NCBI GenBank assembly: GCA_049700835.1
Contig: JBNAUL010000001.1
Span: forward strand, 246,043 to 310,042
Length of the DNA stretch: 64,000 nt
Direction: 5' to 3'
From: Candidatus Woesearchaeota archaeon
Lineage (GTDB): Archaea > Nanobdellota > Nanobdellia > Woesearchaeales > WAPY01
Program-made: the position numbers
Shown here: positions 54,001 through 64,000 of the stretch, in pieces
How positions within the stretch are numbered: the first letter of the stretch is position 1
Layout of the letters: every line of letters begins with the position of its first letter

Positions 54001-57000
54001 AGCATCGCTAAAACTCAAAGCATTCTTTCCAATATAATTTTTTAAAACGCTTGCTCTGCAAGCGCTTTCTTTGGCTGATTCGTTGCTCACTTGGCTTAAT
54101 AAACCAGCTATTACAAGAAGGATAAAAATTACGATTAGAACTATTATTATTGCAACTAAAATTCCAATTCCTTTTTTGTTTTTTATCATGCTTGCTCTGT
54201 TGGTTTGTTTTTATTAAAAAATATAATTGTTTTTTTAAGCTTTTCTTTATTTTTCAATGTAGGCATTAATTATTTCTAAAATTATTTATTTTTCAAAATA
54301 CATCTTAGAAAACAAAAAATAATATAAATTTAAGCAATCATTCATTTGAGATGCTCCAAAATTCAAATTTAAAAAATTTTTCTGGTTCAAAAAAAAAGAA
54401 ATTTATATTCATATCAGGAGGAGTAATAAGCGGAGTTGGAAAAGGGGTTGCAACTGCTTCTATAGCAAAGATAATGAAAGAATTTGGATTCAAAGCAACA
54501 TGCATAAAAATAGACCCATACATAAATGTTGATGCAGGGACTTTAAGGCCAACAGAGCATGGAGAGGTGTGGGTTACTTTTGATGGAGGAGAAACAGACC
54601 AGGACTTAGGAAACTATGAGAGATTCACGCACCAAAACCTTCCAAAGAAAAACAACATAACAACAGGGCAAATCTATGAAGAACTTATAAGGAAGGAACG
54701 CTCTGGTTTATTTCTTGGAAAAACAGTTCAGATAATTCCTCATTTTATTGACGAGGTAAAGAAAAGGATTTTAGATGCAGGTAAGGACTTTGAAATTATT
54801 TTGGTTGAAATAGGAGGTACTGTAGGTGATTATGAAAACATGCCATTCCTTTTTGCAGCAAAGAGTTTGGAAAAGGACTTTGGAAAGGAAAACATAGTTT
54901 ATGTTTTAGTAAGTTACCTGCCAACTCCAGGCAATATTGGGGAGATGAAGACAAAACCAACTCAGCAGGCAATAAAGATGCTTTCAGAGACAGGAATATA
55001 TCCTGACATTGTTATTGCAAGAGCAGCAGAGCCATTAGATGATGTAAGAAAAGAGAAAATAGAGAGGTATGCAAACATAAACAAGGAATTCATAATATCA
55101 GCACCTGATGTTGATAACATCTATTTTATTCCTCTTAATTTTGAAAGAGAAATGCTTGGAGCGAAGATCCTTAAAAGATTGAACTTAAAACCAAGAAAGA
55201 GGGCTAATTGGAGTGCGTGGAAAAGGAGTGCGGAGTTAATAGAAAAATCAGATAGAGTTGCAAAAATAGCAATCGTAGGAAAATACTTTAAGATAGGAAA
55301 TTACAACCTAAAGGACTCGTACATTTCTGTTATTGAATCGTTAAAGCATGCTGCTGCTTATTTAGGAGCAAGGGTCTGCATTGAAGAAGTTTCTTCTCAG
55401 GATTTAGAAAGCAATGAAATAAAACTTGAAGATATTCTAAGCAGGTTTGACGGTGTGCTTATTCCAGGAGGATTTGGAAGCCAGGGTGTTTCTGGAAAGA
55501 TAAATGCAATAAGATATGCAAGGGAAAATAGAAAGCCGTTTTTAGGGCTCTGCTTTGGAATGCAATTGGCAATCATAGAATTCTGCAGGAATGTTTTAGG
55601 AATGCGCGATGCTGATAGCGTTGAAATAAATCCAAGAACAGAAAATCCTGTCATAACGATACTTCCTGAACAGCAAGAATTGTTGAAGAATAATGCTTAC
55701 GGAGCGACGATGAGGTTAGGGGGTTATGCAGCGGTTCTTGATAGAGAAAGCATCGTGTACATGCTTTACAAGGAGTTTGGGAGAATAAAAAATGATATGA
55801 AAACAATTGAATTTTATCTGAAAGACAAAGATTTAAGGTTCAGGGTTGGTTATATTCCTAAAAATTCTGAAGCGGTTCTTGAAAGGCATAGGCACAGGTA
55901 TGAGGTAAATCCAAAATATGTTGAACTCTTAGAGAAGAATGGAGTAAGAATAAGCGGCTGTCACTTTATTGACCAAAGAAAAAAGCTTGTTGAGTTTATT
56001 GAATTGAAAGAACATCCATTCTTTGTTGCAACTCAATCACATCCAGAATTCAGTTCAAAATTCTTAAGTCCTTCTCCTTTATTTGTAGGTTTTTTAAGGG
56101 CTTGCTTGAGTTCAAATGGTAAGAATATTTGAAAGCATGTTTTTTACTATAATCACTAGTACAAATATTAGGAGCAGAGTTAGAATTATTATGATCAGTT
56201 GCTTCATGGCCATGCTCAAACTATAACCTCAATTAATATAAAAATCTAACTGTTATTTCTTTACTCTTTTTTACTTAAACATTCTTGCAGCGCAAAAATA
56301 AGACAATTTTATGACAAAAGTAATACAAATATAATACAAATAAATTACAAAAACAAAAAACTGATGAAATTCTTTTGAAAAACACTCAAAAGAGAAAACT
56401 TTATATATCAGTAAATAAACAAATGTCTTACAAATGAATTACAATTATGTATTTAGTATACTAATCTAACAAAAGACAAACAAGCAAGCAGGTGATTTTT
56501 TGAGGAAGAAGAGGAAAGAGGATGCGGAAATTCTTAACATAAGGCTGCCTTCAAACATAATTTCTTGGATCGATTCCCAAATAAAGAACAACGCATATAG
56601 AACAAGGTCTGAAGCAGTAAGAGAACTTCTAAGGGAATTCATTTTTTCTTATTCCAAAAATCAGGAAAAAGAAGACAAGGGTGATGAACAATAGCAGAAA
56701 GAATAGTGAGCATAAGGATTCCAAAATCAATGATGCAGGAATTGAGGAAAATAGCAGAAAGGGAACACTACATGGACCTTAGCGAAGCAGTAAGGAGTTT
56801 TTTAAGGAAGAAGATGCTTGAAAGCTCAAGCAGGAAGAATTCTGTTAATTTAGAAATAAAGGATTATTTAGGGAGAATACTTGAGAAGAAAATAAGCGAA
56901 GAGAACAAAAAATTGCTGATAGAGCAATTAAGGATAATAGAAGAATTGCTTGAAAATAACAATCTTTCAAAAAAATAAAATAATAAAAATAGAATGATAA

Positions 57001-63000: not shown

Positions 63001-64000
63001 GCAGTAAAAGAATAACAATTACAATAGATAAAAATCTGCTTAATTTTTTGGATCACCTTATTTCTAAGAGAATTTTTGCCAATAGGAGTCATGCTTTTGA
63101 ATTTTTAATAAGAAAGAGAACAGAATTTGAGAATGAAAGAGAGAATTACTATTACCTTAAATGAGGAACTGCTGGACTGGATAGATAACAAAATTAAGAA
63201 GAGAATTTTTGCCAATAGGAGTCATGCTTTTGAATTTTTAATAGCAAGATTGATGGAAAACAACAAGCTTCAGAGCGAAGATGAAAACAAGAGATAAAAC
63301 CAAAGATTTAGGAAAAGGGAAAAACTTGAAAAATCTTAAAAAGCATTTTGACGAAGGCGGATTTAGGGCAACATTTTATGCCTTGCTGGCAGCAATACTT
63401 GCAATCCTTGCAATAATTGTTCTCATACATATTAAGAATTACATTGGATATATGGCACTTCAAACAAGAGCAGGTTCAATCTCTGAATTGAAGATTGACC
63501 TACGATTGCCAGCATCGATATGGAGCGGATTTTACGGTTTAGGGCTAATGGTTCCTGGATATACAGAACAACAACTTGATGTTGCAATTGGCAATACAAT
63601 TAAGAACAAGCACTTGGTTTTTGACTGCTTGAAATACGATGAAGAAAATCCTCCTGAAATTTATGCTTCAACCTCTCCTGTCATTCTCTGGGAAACACTA
63701 AGCCCAGCAACAACAGACATGGTTGACAATTACTTGGAAGTAAGCCCTGATTACATAATGTCAGGCACAAATACCTTCACAACGACTATGACAATAAGAT
63801 TAGGAGATAGAAACATAACAAACATTCCAGCAACACATACTAAAAAATTTGGAGCTCCTGACAGCATGCTCTTTGACATTGGAGTTTTGAGAGACGCAAA
63901 CAACAACTTAGTTTTTGTAACTCATGTTACAGACTATGTCAGGGGCTTTAACAACGAACTTGTAAACTATCAAATGCTACTTCCTGTAAAATCAGATACG

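What a model noticed while it worked through the whole genome (the two positions that open the first line are those of the whole stretch)
56500..64000. Membrane-anchored HerA-type translocase with external Ig-like domains, in two RHH-linked paralogous cassettes
g00307 (800 aa) and g00310 (1266 aa) are not soluble HerA helicases: each has an N-terminal signal/anchor helix, tandem beta-sandwich (Ig/CarboxypepD_reg-like) domains predicted outside the cell, a second transmembrane helix, and then a cytoplasmic HerA/FtsK-class hexameric translocase ATPase with a long helical tail. Each gene is translationally coupled to upstream genes (a 1035-aa PKD-like surface protein g00306 for g00307; small ribbon-helix-helix proteins g00308/g00309 for g00310). 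The two paralogues share a 1246-bp stretch that is 99.8% identical (gene conversion). The family is very large in Woesearchaeota/Nanoarchaeota and unnamed; the architecture suggests a membrane DNA (or polymer) [...]
Evidence so far: pfam.tsv: DUF87/HerA central domain aa317-415 (g00307), aa741-839 (g00310); CarboxypepD_reg aa358-433 (g00310); RHH_1 on g00309. Gene overlaps read from genes.tsv: g00306 end 306143 / g00307 start 306140; g00309 end 309339 / g00310 start 309323. find_homologous_proteins with g00307: 759 proteins at E<=0.001 among 8000 candidates, 120 listed, 736-1400 aa, 40-100% id, Pfams PF01935 (DUF87), PF05872, PF13620/PF13715 (CarboxypepD_reg), some PF01580 (FtsK_SpoIIIE), PF10412, PF12846, TPR; names only 'DUF87/HerA-like domain-containing'. 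AlphaFold2 on 21-seq alignment A4: pLDDT 78, helices 14-32 and 268-296 flank beta-strands 38-254; ATPase 314-580. Foldseek PDB: S. solfataricus HerA 4d2i E 8e-11, T The finding spans contig positions 302542 to 313661; this window holds only 302542 to 310042 of it. [...]
(Added by a program. Inside this text positions count along the whole contig: contig position 246,043 is position 1 of the stretch shown here. "Call 12" and the like, gene names such as g00115 and contig names such as C1 are that model's own, and its searches are not shown. The text may have been shortened before it was handed on; [...] marks where a part breaks off. The agent that wrote the report below was given it as the finding of a first reader that could run no searches.)

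Follow-up and report, generated by a model that had tools for sequence, protein, structure and literature searches.

The report
Membrane HerA motors sharing G/T-only-codon cassette
Two membrane-anchored motor-protein genes of a hot-spring nano-archaeon share an identical 1.2-kb stretch in which virtually every codon ends in G or T, a natural sequence oddity that points to an undescribed recombination-linked process reshaping genes.

Summary
g00307 (800 aa) and g00310 (1266 aa) are membrane-anchored HerA/FtsK-superfamily ATPases: TM helix, Ig-like ectodomain, second TM helix, cytoplasmic ATPase, helical tail. They overlap their upstream genes and share a 1246-bp repeat with 2 mismatches. DNA transport is untested.

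The bigger finding is the repeat itself. In 406 of 407 codons the third base is G or T, with essentially one codon per amino acid (GTT 57, TTG 46, GGT 44). The amino-acid make-up is shifted (Lys 10 to 3%, Arg 2 to 12.5%). The edges are sharp and coincide with the edges of identity.

The same "K3" state, at the same position and again in two copies, occurs in a same-genus genome and in relatives only 71-73% identical, on contigs of 38-46% GC. Homologues at 59% identity or less are normal, and their seven tandem pairs are not homogenised.

Other K3 patches in this genome lie in surface-protein genes, mostly as near-identical pairs.

My best reading is a persistent, strand-asymmetric, recombination-coupled drive that purges A and C from the sense strand of gene-conversion tracts. 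The closest known analogue is the GC-skewed vls cassettes of Borrelia. I found no precedent in print.

The parts
56706..56978 (+). small ORF (90 aa) with a weak ribbon-helix-helix match, upstream of g00306
   Evidence: ORF; RHH_1 E 1.8e-3, below the cut-off
56994..60101 (+). g00306, 1035-aa surface protein with an N-terminal and a C-terminal hydrophobic helix and PKD/Ig-like domains; its stop overlaps the start of g00307 by 4 nt
   Evidence: PKD E 3.8e-7; hydrophobic windows 14-39 and 881-914; 40 sequons
60098..62500 (+). g00307, 800-aa membrane-anchored HerA/FtsK-superfamily ATPase (short paralogue)
60137..60193 (+). TM/anchor helix 1 (aa 14-32)
60209..60859 (+). tandem beta-sandwich ectodomain (aa 38-254), holding 7 of the protein's 8 N-X-S/T sequons
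   Evidence: Ig-like/RbmA/transglutaminase beta-sandwich hits
60899..60985 (+). TM helix 2 (aa 268-296), followed by RRSRLRY (positive inside)
60933..62178 (+). copy 1 of the 1246-bp repeat (99.84% identical to C1:311430-312675 in g00310)
60938..62158 (+). K3 patch: codons 281-687, 406 of 407 ending in G or T; third position A 0.02, C 0.00, G 0.31, T 0.67; encodes the whole ATPase plus the helical domain
61121..61144 (+). Walker A GATGGGKS (aa 342-349); Walker B D471-E472 lies at 61508-61513; both are invariant in the 21-sequence alignment
61859..62218 (+). long helical domain (aa 588-707), ending in a K/E-rich polypurine linker just 3' of the patch
62234..62494 (+). C-terminal small helical tail domain (aa 713-799), which recurs in many small ORFs of this and related genomes (weakly DUF5752-like)
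62910..63164 (+). RHH protein 1 (84 aa)
63127..63297 (+). RHH protein 2 (56 aa), overlapping the g00310 start by 17 nt
63281..64000 (+). 5' part of g00310 (1266 aa, long paralogue; continues to C1:313123, outside the window). Its K3 patch is C1:311417-312655

Best explanation
The locus encodes two paralogous membrane-anchored hexameric-type ATPases of the HerA/FtsK superfamily. Each has an Ig-like ectodomain outside, two TM helices and the motor inside. They sit in a conserved operon of giant Ig/PKD/CARDB surface proteins, two RHH proteins and a coiled-coil protein. Most likely this is the motor of a DPANN cell-surface apparatus that moves a polymer across the membrane; DNA is my first guess, and this is inferred, not shown. 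The DNA for the entire cytoplasmic motor (codons 281-687) is a gene-conversion cassette kept identical in both paralogues. In this cassette A and C are excluded from every position where the protein allows it, so all wobble bases are G or T, and Leu, Val and Gly use TTG, GTT and GGT. I propose that recurrent recombination between the copies is strand-asymmetric. The sense strand repeatedly serves as the long-lived single strand or template, while the antisense strand is resected and resynthesised. A and C are lost from the sense strand in two ways. First, they are the bases damaged in single-stranded DNA. Second, the archaeal mismatch endonuclease EndoMS/NucS, which the genome encodes, cuts G/T, G/G and T/T mismatches but not A/C, A/A or C/C. 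Errors that change sense-strand A or C into G or T therefore escape correction, while the reverse errors are removed. The result is DNA whose single strands cannot fold, which is an ideal recombinase substrate and would reinforce conversion. Shown here: the anatomy, the composition, the copy identity, inheritance across lineages, and the lack of single-strand structure. Inferred: the mechanism, the strand polarity, and the protein's substrate.
For: Protein. DUF87 scores above its cut-off, Walker A and B are invariant, and the fold is HerA-like. The topology is supported. The operon order is conserved in L033 and L035-L037.

Cassette composition. 406 of 407 codons end in G/T with one codon per amino acid. 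Arg is split between AGG and CGT, and Ser between TCT and AGT, exactly where no synonymous single-step route removes the A or C. That is the signature of mutation plus selection, not of design.

Controls. The K3 patch scores in this genome are 551, 403, 402 and 221, against a maximum of 122-161 for any other two-base class.

Boundaries. The edges coincide with the edges of identity between the paralogues.

Inheritance.
- The same patch, at the same borders, is present in the same-genus genome G001 (K3 0.99).
- It is also present in metagenome loci of 71-73% aa identity on contigs of 38-46% GC. There the third position is still at least 98.7% G/T, but four-fold sites mix T and G (GTT/GTG 26/19).
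- Among the L034/L035/L037 lineages, 101 of 176 polarised changes are T<->G while A/C never accumulate. The exclusion is therefore active, not a frozen relic.

Link to conversion.
- K3 lineages have copies that are about 100% identical: G000 0 differences in 1227 nt; L033 99.4% over the 1245-bp repeat, its ATPase segments 100% over 1218 nt; L036 127/127; L037 100/100.
- All 7 non-K3 tandem pairs examined are only 65-90% identical at the aa level.
- Three of the four longest intragenomic repeats of 99% identity or more are K3.

Synonymous sites. Between G000 and L033, the third base differs at 9 of 389 identical residues in the patch. The figures for CTP synthase, g00306 and the g00307 N-terminus are 166/492, 292/815 and 70/225.

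Direction of amino-acid change against 66 normal homologues: A>G 30%, A>T 22%, C>G 11% and C>T 6%, against about 6% for the reverse types.

Enzyme and DNA properties. NucS/EndoMS is present at 124.7 bits, and its mismatch specificity is stated in the abstracts of PMC4838380 and PMC6159521. Single-strand DNA folding energy is -2.7 to -3.3 kcal/mol per 100 nt in 6 K3 segments, against -5.9 to -11.8 in 13 homologous non-K3 segments.

Habitat. The two laid runs that hold most or all of the stretch or patch are labelled hot springs; a third is labelled sediment.
Against: - No direct evidence exists for the strand polarity, for breaks at the patch's 3' edge, or for EndoMS involvement. NucS is common in archaea that show no such patches.
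- A third-position A+C frequency near 1% implies a bias of roughly 100:1. That is very strong for any mutational or repair bias, so selection on some nucleic-acid property cannot be excluded.
- One 981-bp, 99.6% identical tandem pair in the same genome (C2:429833-432092) is not K3. Conversion alone is therefore not sufficient.
- A single-copy gene (C2:317994-321209) shows the opposite partial bias, about 88% A/C-ending codons. The sense-strand model does not predict this.
- Recent polarised changes at the remaining, constrained A/C sites show no excess of amino-to-keto changes (4 against 6, and 18 against 40).
- Replication polarity could not be read from the skew.
- For the protein, matches to DNA-transfer ATPase families are far below their cut-offs, and the giant surface proteins in the operon fit a protein-export or assembly role equally well.
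Confidence: 0.45

Rival explanations
1. The cassettes are foreign DNA. Segments were imported by homologous recombination from a donor replicon (virus, plasmid or another archaeon) whose coding strands are G+T-rich throughout. The composition would then reflect the donor, not a local process.
For: The boundaries lie sharply inside genes. The patch is much more conserved between lineages than its flanks (97% against 80-83% aa). In runs X3 and X5, contigs match only the patch, with 26-27 differences in 1205 nt, and continue into unlike sequence.
Against: No such donor was found: 0 relatives in viral contigs. All 7 further loci from genome contigs and metagenome contigs carry the patch in the same gene, at the same place, with ordinary flanks. 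The T:G ratio at four-fold sites follows the host contig's GC content. At least four unrelated gene families carry patches. In the surface-protein pair the patch keeps its borders between G000 and G001 despite 22% aa divergence. Patch positions differ in homologues of other genera.
Confidence: 0.12
2. This is purely mutational and coupled to transcription. Stable R-loops, favoured by the G-rich sense strand, leave the sense strand single-stranded. Heat-driven deamination or alkylation of A and C then does the rest. Gene conversion is a by-product.
For: The G+T-rich strand is the sense strand in every strong patch (1339 forward pattern matches against 1 reverse). GC skew is 0.62. The source is a hot spring. 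A and C are the bases lost. A positive feedback between skew and R-loops is conceivable (inference).
Against: Transcription covers the whole gene, yet the patch stops sharply at the edges of paralogue identity. Neighbouring co-transcribed genes are normal. A>T and C>G changes are frequent, which deamination does not give. The 100:1 bias is extreme for damage alone.
Confidence: 0.15
3. Selection acts on a nucleic-acid property. One option is structure-free single strands or GT-rich recombinase-preferred DNA, to keep the two motors identical so that they can form mixed rings. Another is an mRNA or antisense property. Mutation bias would play no part.
For: Single-stranded DNA of both strands, and the antisense RNA, are almost structure-free. 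T and G interchange freely at wobble sites while A and C stay excluded. Identical motor domains would allow co-assembly (inference).
Against: Amino-acid composition is dragged along (VGFL 45% against 27%, INKT 8% against 26%). That is typical of mutation or drive pressure overriding protein-level preference. The per-site benefit would be minute. Patches also occur in unrelated extracellular proteins. Sense-RNA folding is not reduced.
Confidence: 0.15
4. The ATPases are not DNA pumps. They power export, assembly or anchoring of the giant surface proteins encoded beside them (functionally like the FtsK-like EssC/EccC of type VII secretion), or they belong to a HerA-based defence system.
For: The operon is dominated by 1035- to about 2890-aa Ig/PKD/CARDB surface proteins. 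There are weak PADLOC matches to mad8 (E 3.6e-14) and to defence HerA models.
Against: The best fold and sequence matches are the DNA translocase HerA. RHH DNA-binding proteins are conserved between the paralogues. No partner nuclease, Sir2 or other defence effector was seen next to the genes.
Confidence: 0.3
5. Artefact: assembly chimera, synthetic or codon-optimised contaminant, or sequencing error.
For: One codon per amino acid looks designed at first sight. Contigs break at the repeats.
Against: The frame is continuous across both junctions. The same cassette, carrying natural divergence, is found in an independent MAG, in 6 metagenome loci and in laid contigs of runs from other studies. 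Two-fold depth of the patch contig in X5 fits two copies. The Arg and Ser codon splits and the GC-dependent T/G ratio are evolutionary signatures.
Confidence: 0.02

Closest known systems
HerA (archaeal DNA-end-resection translocase; PDB 4d2i, 9x1l) and the wider HerA/FtsK/VirB4 ASCE ATPases
   Same: P-loop core with Walker A and B, Pfam DUF87 above its cut-off, and best structural and profile matches.
   Different: There are two TM helices and a 220-650-aa Ig-like ectodomain in place of the soluble N-terminal barrel. A long helical domain and a DUF5752-like tail are added. No NurA-type partner was seen in the operon. Identity to solved HerA is about 12%.
Membrane-anchored FtsK-like motors: type IV coupling proteins (VirD4/TraD), Streptomyces TraB, crenarchaeal Ced ATPase, T7SS EssC/EccC
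   Same: Overall logic of N-terminal TM helices followed by a cytoplasmic FtsK/HerA-class motor. RHH proteins sit nearby, as in conjugative relaxosomes (the relaxosome role of RHH proteins is recalled, not tested).
   Different: NCBIfam scores are 17.8-28.5 bits against cut-offs of 366-800. No relaxase, pilin or VirB-like genes were seen. The large ectodomain is unusual.
vls antigenic-variation cassettes of Lyme-disease Borrelia
   Same: Gene-conversion cassettes in an AT-rich genome, with coding-strand GC skew of about 0.52 and a composition unlike the rest of the genome, thought to be needed for conversion (PMC11499132, passages read). Here the GC skew is 0.62.
   Different: vls has no T excess (AT skew about 0.05) and no absolute wobble rule. 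It uses an array of silent cassettes about 90% identical that convert one expression site, and it diversifies a surface antigen. Here two expressed copies are kept identical, the HerA cassette is cytoplasmic, and A and C are both purged.
Strand compositional asymmetry from single-strand exposure (G+T-rich strands of animal mitochondria; leading strands of bacteria)
   Same: The direction of the bias (G+T over A+C on one strand) and the presumed cause (recalled knowledge, not tested here).
   Different: Those are replicon-wide and moderate. Here the bias is confined to 0.2-1.9-kb intragenic tracts, is saturated, and is tied to paralogue identity.
Diversity-generating retroelements (common in DPANN; recalled)
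   Same: Two near-identical intragenic repeats with a sharp 5' edge and a base-specific bias involving adenine.
   Different: No reverse transcriptase was found in a 98.7% complete genome. Both copies are coding and identical. C is purged as well. The tracts are about ten times longer than a typical variable region.

Membership tests
HerA/FtsK superfamily (Pfam DUF87/HerA central domain, PF01935) | Profile match above the curated cut-off | tested here: met
   47.1 bits (g00307) and 46.2 bits (g00310) against a cut-off of 23.2
HerA/FtsK superfamily | Walker A and Walker B motifs intact and conserved | tested here: met
   GATGGGKS at aa 342-349 and D471-E472 are invariant in 21 sequences
HerA/FtsK superfamily | Fold similarity of the ATPase core to solved HerA | tested here: met
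   Foldseek 4d2i E 7.9e-11; profile search 4d2i E 3.1e-9; 9x1l and 8xau also match
Canonical HerA (HerA-NurA end resection) | Soluble protein with an N-terminal HAS barrel, operon partner NurA (with Mre11/Rad50), and the NCBIfam equivalog score | tested here: not met
   NF040937 scores 27.4 bits against a cut-off of 800. The N-terminus is TM plus ectodomain. The operon neighbours are surface proteins and RHH proteins. NurA itself was not searched in the genome.
Hexameric ring translocase | Forms a hexamer with a central pore that threads DNA | not testable with these tools
   No complex prediction was run. A pass would rest on likeness to solved HerA rings.
FtsK/SpoIIIE (PF01580) | Full alpha/beta motor match and gamma (KOPS-binding) domain | tested here: not met
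   Only aa 317-356 match (27.6 bits against a cut-off of 24 in g00307; 21.8 bits, below the cut-off, in g00310). No gamma-domain family appears among the Pfam hits at E<=0.01.
Type IV coupling protein / VirB4 (TraD, TraC) and Ced ATPase (CedD model) | Family model score above the cut-off | tested here: not met
   TraC 28.5 against 567, TraD 20.5 against 366, CedD 26.4 against 600, TraB 19.9 against 800
Diversity-generating retroelement target | Reverse transcriptase in the genome; non-coding template repeat; adenine-specific differences between the repeats | tested here: not met
   PF00078 gave 0 matches in G000 while the controls rang. Both repeats are in frame inside genes, with 0 differences in 1227 nt.
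vls-type gene-conversion cassette system | Strong coding-strand GC skew confined to the cassettes | tested here: met
   GC skew 0.62 in the repeat, against 0.05-0.15 in the surrounding 25-kb bins
vls-type gene-conversion cassette system | Array of silent, promoterless cassettes that diversify one expression site | tested here: not met
   There are only two copies per genome, both inside full-length genes, and they are kept identical rather than diversified

The most novel reading that the evidence does not exclude
A family of Woesearchaeota has a previously undescribed genome-editing-like process, a recombination-coupled and strand-specific 'keto drive'. It converts whole gene-conversion tracts to G/T-only wobble composition. 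It rewrites protein composition (Lys to Arg, Ile to Val, and a gain of Val, Gly, Phe and Leu). It freezes synonymous evolution and keeps paralogous, and possibly inter-lineage, copies identical. The cassettes could be self-promoting recombination substrates, perhaps moved between cells by the very membrane DNA translocase they encode.
Probability: 0.35. Interest if true: 0.9.

Novelty: new variant of a known kind. Interest (0 to 1): 0.82.

Why it matters
First, the locus gives a concrete, conserved operon for the cell-surface machinery of DPANN archaea: two membrane HerA-class motors with ectodomains, RHH proteins and giant Ig-like proteins. The way these archaea exchange material with their hosts is an open question.

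Second, and more surprising, it shows natural coding DNA that obeys an almost absolute "no A or C where avoidable" rule. The rule is confined to gene-conversion tracts, is inherited across species, and is strong enough to reshape amino-acid composition.

If the cause is a repair or recombination bias, for example the G/T-only mismatch vision of EndoMS/NucS acting on one strand, it would be a new kind of biased gene conversion. It would also be a clean natural experiment on how mutation or drive pressure trades off against protein function.

There are practical consequences too. Such tracts break assemblies. They mimic synthetic codon-optimised DNA. They violate the assumptions of dN/dS and codon-usage methods.

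Tried and rejected
- DGR or retro-homing: rejected. No RVT_1 match in G000.
- Viral donor: none among viral contigs with this query.
- Census of K3 tracts across the order with a periodic K/N pattern: the accepted 142-base pattern worked on the own genome. How widespread K3 tracts are outside the loci I fetched therefore remains open.
- Replication polarity from GC skew: uninformative, because the skew follows gene orientation.
- tRNA complement: aragorn found only 29 tRNAs, too incomplete to test decoding hypotheses.
- Polarising recent substitutions: dominated by T<->G exchanges. The remaining A/C sites are constrained, so there is no directional signal.
- G-quadruplex idea: 21 runs of three or more G, but only 5 of four or more, in 1221 nt. 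Not pursued.
- RNA run X10: contigs cover parts of the patch (61340-62142). This does not show transcription.
Parts of the stretch without cover in X3, X5 and X10 prove nothing.
- Literature searches for a precedent returned nothing relevant. PMC6851277 (passages read) concerns a PTD-repeat hypervariable gene and is unrelated.

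
Full report
OBSERVATION

The window is G000:C1:246043-310042 of a 1.07-Mb, 4-contig, 32% GC genome that is 98.7% complete.

- g00306: window 56994-60101, 1035 aa.
- g00307: window 60098-62500, 800 aa.
- Two small ORFs: 62910-63164 and 63127-63297.
- g00310: from 63281, 1266 aa, ending at C1:313123.

g00306 and g00307 overlap by ATGA. The second small ORF overlaps g00310 by 17 nt.

Pfam gives the following:
- DUF87/HerA central domain in both ATPases, at 47.1 and 46.2 bits against a cut-off of 23.2.
- CarboxypepD_reg in g00310.
- PKD in g00306.
- RHH_1 on both small ORFs, plus a weak RHH_1 hit on a third small ORF at 56706-56978.

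Foldseek against the PDB puts S. solfataricus HerA 4d2i first (E 7.9e-11). Ig-like beta-sandwich proteins follow for the ectodomain, and further HerA structures also match. A profile search of PDB sequences also finds only HerA-type proteins.

The topology has independent support:
- Both helices are strong hydrophobic windows.
- TM2 is followed by RRSRLRY, with 5 K/R in 15 residues.
- N-X-S/T sequons lie almost only in the predicted ectodomains: 7 of 8 in g00307 and 20 of 20 in g00310.

THE FAMILY AND THE OPERON

The homologue search gave 759 proteins at E<=1e-30 among 8000 scored candidates. They fall into two length classes, about 760-860 aa and about 1170-1400 aa. The only names are DUF87/HerA-like, TPR or carboxypeptidase-regulatory-like.

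Among 60 related genomes of the order, 17 have a best match at E<=1e-50. Many weaker matches hit only the C-terminal tail domain.

Downstream of g00310 lie:
- a 187-aa protein with a weak DUF5752 match;
- a 311-aa coiled-coil protein;
- surface proteins of 1368, 2203 and about 2890 aa, with Big, MG2 and CARDB domains.

The gene order is: CTP synthase, large PKD protein, short ATPase, two RHH genes, long ATPase, about 200-aa protein, about 300-400-aa protein, giant surface protein. It recurs in metagenome loci L033 and L035-L037. The tandem RHH pair is present in all four.

NCBIfam matches to TraC, HerA, CedD, TraD and TraB are 17.8-28.5 bits against cut-offs of 366-800. PADLOC gives weak mad8 and HerA matches.

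The proteins are therefore a distinct, unnamed branch of the HerA/FtsK superfamily, not members of any named transfer or repair family.

THE REPEAT IS A COMPOSITIONAL ANOMALY

The 1246-bp repeat (window 60933-62178 against C1:311430-312675) has 2 mismatches, both at its 5' edge. The inner 1227 nt are identical.

Its composition is A 0.14, C 0.08, G 0.34, T 0.44, with GC skew 0.62.

Codons 281-687 of g00307 end in G or T in 406 of 407 cases. The third position is A 0.02, C 0.00, G 0.31, T 0.67. The gene's N-terminal and C-terminal parts have 44% and 48% G+T there.

Each amino acid uses essentially one codon: GTT 57, TTG 46, GGT 44, TTT 32, GAG 29, GAT 26, GCT 21 over codons 279-694 (GCT 20 in the strict patch). 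The exceptions are Arg (AGG 28, CGT 24) and Ser (TCT 14, AGT 10). These are the two cases where no synonymous single step can remove the remaining A or C. Leu, where CTN to TTG is synonymous, is 46:3. That is what directional pressure filtered by purifying selection produces. It is not what a back-translation table produces.

Amino-acid composition is dragged the same way:
- Lys 10.1 to 3.1%.
- Arg 2.2 to 12.5%.
- Val 5.8 to 13.7%.
- Gly 4.0 to 10.8%.
- Ile 11.9 to 1.9%.

Against the consensus of 66 normal homologues, the base changes implied by 92 replaced residues are as follows. This is a nearest-codon estimate.
- A>G 30%.
- A>T 22%.
- A>C 12%.
- G>T 12%.
- C>G 11%.
- C>T 6%.
- The four reverse types together make about 6%.

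The catalytic motifs are intact and invariant, so the cassette encodes a working protein.

IT IS NOT CHANCE AND NOT AN ARTEFACT

A frame-aware scan of the genome gives K3 tract scores of 551, 403, 402, 221 and 221. The best tract for any other pair of bases at the third position scores 122-161, and several of those are the antisense frames of K3 tracts. The periodic pattern search found 1339 forward and 1 reverse match.

The same cassette, with natural divergence, occurs in:
- an independent MAG of the same genus (G001, which is L031; 95.8% aa identity; K3 0.99; same borders FAYVRYRV...RERQKAIK);
- metagenome contigs L032 and L033 (97%);
- contigs L034-L037 (71-73% aa identity, contig GC 38-46%).

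Laid contigs of three other runs hold it:
- X2 holds the whole stretch with no differences.
- X3 and X5 hold only the patch 60938-62142, with 26-27 differences, and then run on into unlike sequence.
- In X5 the patch contig has depth 64 against 31-35 for the neighbours, as expected for two copies.

THE K3 STATE IS INHERITED, ACTIVE AND LINKED TO COPY IDENTITY

Homologues from 16 loci of other genera (59% aa identity or less) have an ordinary K3 fraction of 0.21-0.62.

In the GC-richer K3 lineages the third position is still at least 98.7% G/T, but four-fold sites mix T and G (for example GTT/GTG 26/19). In AT-rich G000 they are all T. So the rule is "no A, no C", and the T:G ratio follows the host background.

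Among L034, L035 and L037, 101 of 176 polarised changes are T<->G. Wobble sites therefore do evolve, yet never to A or C. The exclusion is an ongoing force.

Between G000 and L033, the third base differs as follows at identical residues:

| Region | Differing third bases | Share |
|---|---|---|
| CTP synthase | 166 of 492 | 34% |
| g00306 | 292 of 815 | 36% |
| g00307 N-terminus | 70 of 225 | 31% |
| Patch | 9 of 389 | 2.3% |

The patch differences, like most synonymous ones between G000 and G001, are Arg or Ser codon-family switches.

Every K3 lineage where two copies can be compared has them identical or nearly so:
- G000: 0 differences in 1227 nt.
- L033: 99.4% over the 1245-bp repeat; its ATPase segments 100% over 1218 nt.
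- L036: 127/127.
- L037: 100/100.
- L035: only the 122-nt 5' edge is available, at 92.6%.

All 7 tandem pairs from non-K3 lineages are 65-90% identical in protein and 67-84% in DNA.

OTHER K3 TRACTS

In G000 there are further tracts:
- A 747-bp pair, 99.87% identical, at C1:327260-328006 in the ~2890-aa surface protein and C1:341156-341902 in a 668-aa ORF.
- A 261-bp pair, 99.2% identical, inside one 1512-aa ORF (C1:204795 and C1:206850).
- A tract of about 1.9 kb in a Cys-rich secreted protein at the end of contig C3.
- A 175-codon tract at the start of C2.
- A weak tract on the minus strand (C1:26932-27468), again with the sense strand G+T-rich.

In each pair the 5' edge of identity is the 5' edge of K3, while identity runs 20-90 nt beyond K3 at the 3' end.

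The 747-bp tract is K3 at the same borders in G001 although the proteins are only 77.5% identical. A 37%-identical homologue in G016 is not K3.

Homologues of the other two families in G001, G003, G004 and G005 also carry K3 tracts of 71-180 codons, partly at other positions. The phenomenon is thus a property of this Woesearchaeota family, not of one gene.

Not every repeat is K3. A 981-bp, 99.6% tandem pair of secreted proteins on C2 is ordinary. One single-copy gene (C2:317994-321209) shows the mirror image in weaker form, with about 88% A/C-ending codons over about 690 codons.

PHYSICAL CONSEQUENCE

As single-stranded DNA the tracts are almost structure-free:
- Sense strand: -2.7 to -3.3 kcal/mol per 100 nt.
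- Antisense strand: -1.3 to -2.0.
These are for 6 K3 segments. The 13 homologous non-K3 segments of similar GC give -5.9 to -11.8 and -4.7 to -10.3.

The antisense RNA is likewise unstructured. The sense RNA is not, because of G-U pairs.

MECHANISM

Shown: a persistent, sense-strand-specific exclusion of A and C, confined to tracts that are kept identical between paralogues.

Inferred: the process is coupled to recombination between the copies and is strand-asymmetric.

Two known facts make a concrete model.
- A and C are the bases vulnerable in single-stranded DNA (established knowledge, recalled).
- The archaeal mismatch endonuclease EndoMS/NucS cleaves G/T, G/G and T/T but has little or no activity on A/C, A/A and C/C (abstracts of PMC4838380 and PMC6159521). 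G000 encodes NucS at 124.7 bits.

Suppose that during repeated repair the antisense strand of the tract is resected and resynthesised on the sense-strand template. The errors that escape are then A or C inserted opposite sense-strand A or C. After replication these give sense A>G, A>T, C>T and C>G. Those four types make up 69% of the inferred changes. The reverse errors create G/T, G/G or T/T mismatches and are cut.

The resulting structure-free, GT-rich strand would itself favour recombinase loading; the recombinase preference for GT-rich DNA is recalled, not tested. That closes a loop.

The two laid runs that hold the stretch best are labelled hot springs. This would accelerate single-strand damage.

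I rate this family of explanations at about 0.45. The rivals are import from a K3 donor (0.12), R-loop damage alone (0.15) and selection on a nucleic-acid property (0.15). They are set out with their evidence in the Rival explanations section.

For the proteins I commit to a ring-forming membrane motor that moves a polymer across the membrane at the cell surface. DNA is the first guess because the best matches are DNA translocases and because of the RHH proteins. A role in exporting or assembling the neighbouring giant proteins is the main rival (0.3).

COMPARISON AND NOVELTY

The proteins are a new variant within the HerA/FtsK superfamily. They work like membrane-anchored FtsK/VirD4-type motors but fail the membership tests of every named family.

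The cassette has one real analogue, the vls cassettes of Borrelia: gene-conversion units with coding-strand GC skew of about 0.52 in a 28.6% GC genome (PMC11499132, passages). vls has no T excess and no wobble rule. It uses silent cassette arrays, and it diversifies rather than homogenises.

Searches of the held literature for a precedent found none. Papers outside the library cannot be excluded.

The census that would show how widespread the tracts are could not be run.

Noticed in passing
G000:C2:317994-321209 (outside the window): A single-copy 1071-aa gene whose first ~690 codons end in A or C in about 88% of cases (sense strand A 0.53, C 0.22), fading to about 50% afterwards. It is a weaker mirror image of the K3 tracts.
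   Followed up: partly
L039:1260-1982 and L039:15156-15878 (G000:C1:327260-327982 and 341156-341878); L040:4801-4965 and 6856-7020; L041:5908-7695; L042:3-527: Further K3 tracts in giant or secreted surface-protein genes. Most are near-identical pairs. Two lie at contig ends, so these repeats probably broke the assembly.
   Followed up: yes
window about 63066-63110 and about 63199-63243: The two tandem RHH genes share an identical stretch of about 45 nt (the region encoding ...RIFANRSHAFEFLI...). The same 45-nt identity is seen in L033 (9198-9242 against 9331-9375). This looks like a micro-tract of conversion, and it is not K3.
   Followed up: partly
window 62234-62494 (aa 713-799 of g00307); also L038:4098-4661, L039:8476-9417, G000:C1:73695-73925, C1:227297-227686 and window 1-135 (minus strand): The small C-terminal helical domain of both ATPases recurs in many short ORFs of this and related genomes. 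It matches DUF5752 weakly and may be a docking module.
   Followed up: partly
L002 / L031 (G001:C26) and L055 (G001:C68): The G001 gene joins a g00307-like N-terminus to a g00310-like C-terminus across the cassette. A second contig ends inside another copy of the cassette. This is either a real recombinant or a mis-join across the repeat.
   Followed up: partly
G000:C2:429833-430813 and 431112-432092 (outside the window): Two tandem secreted-protein genes that are 99.6% identical over 981 bp with ordinary codon usage. This is a control showing that homogenised paralogues need not be K3.
   Followed up: yes
L049 (G000:C2:421881-422216): A NucS/EndoMS homologue (124.7 bits). No reverse transcriptase was found in the genome.
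   Followed up: partly
window 62160-62230: Immediately 3' of the cassette lies a polypurine, K/E-coding tract (AAAGAAGAAAAA...). Similar A-rich low-complexity linkers follow the cassette in g00310. Short contigs of many organisms pile up here in the laid runs.
   Followed up: no
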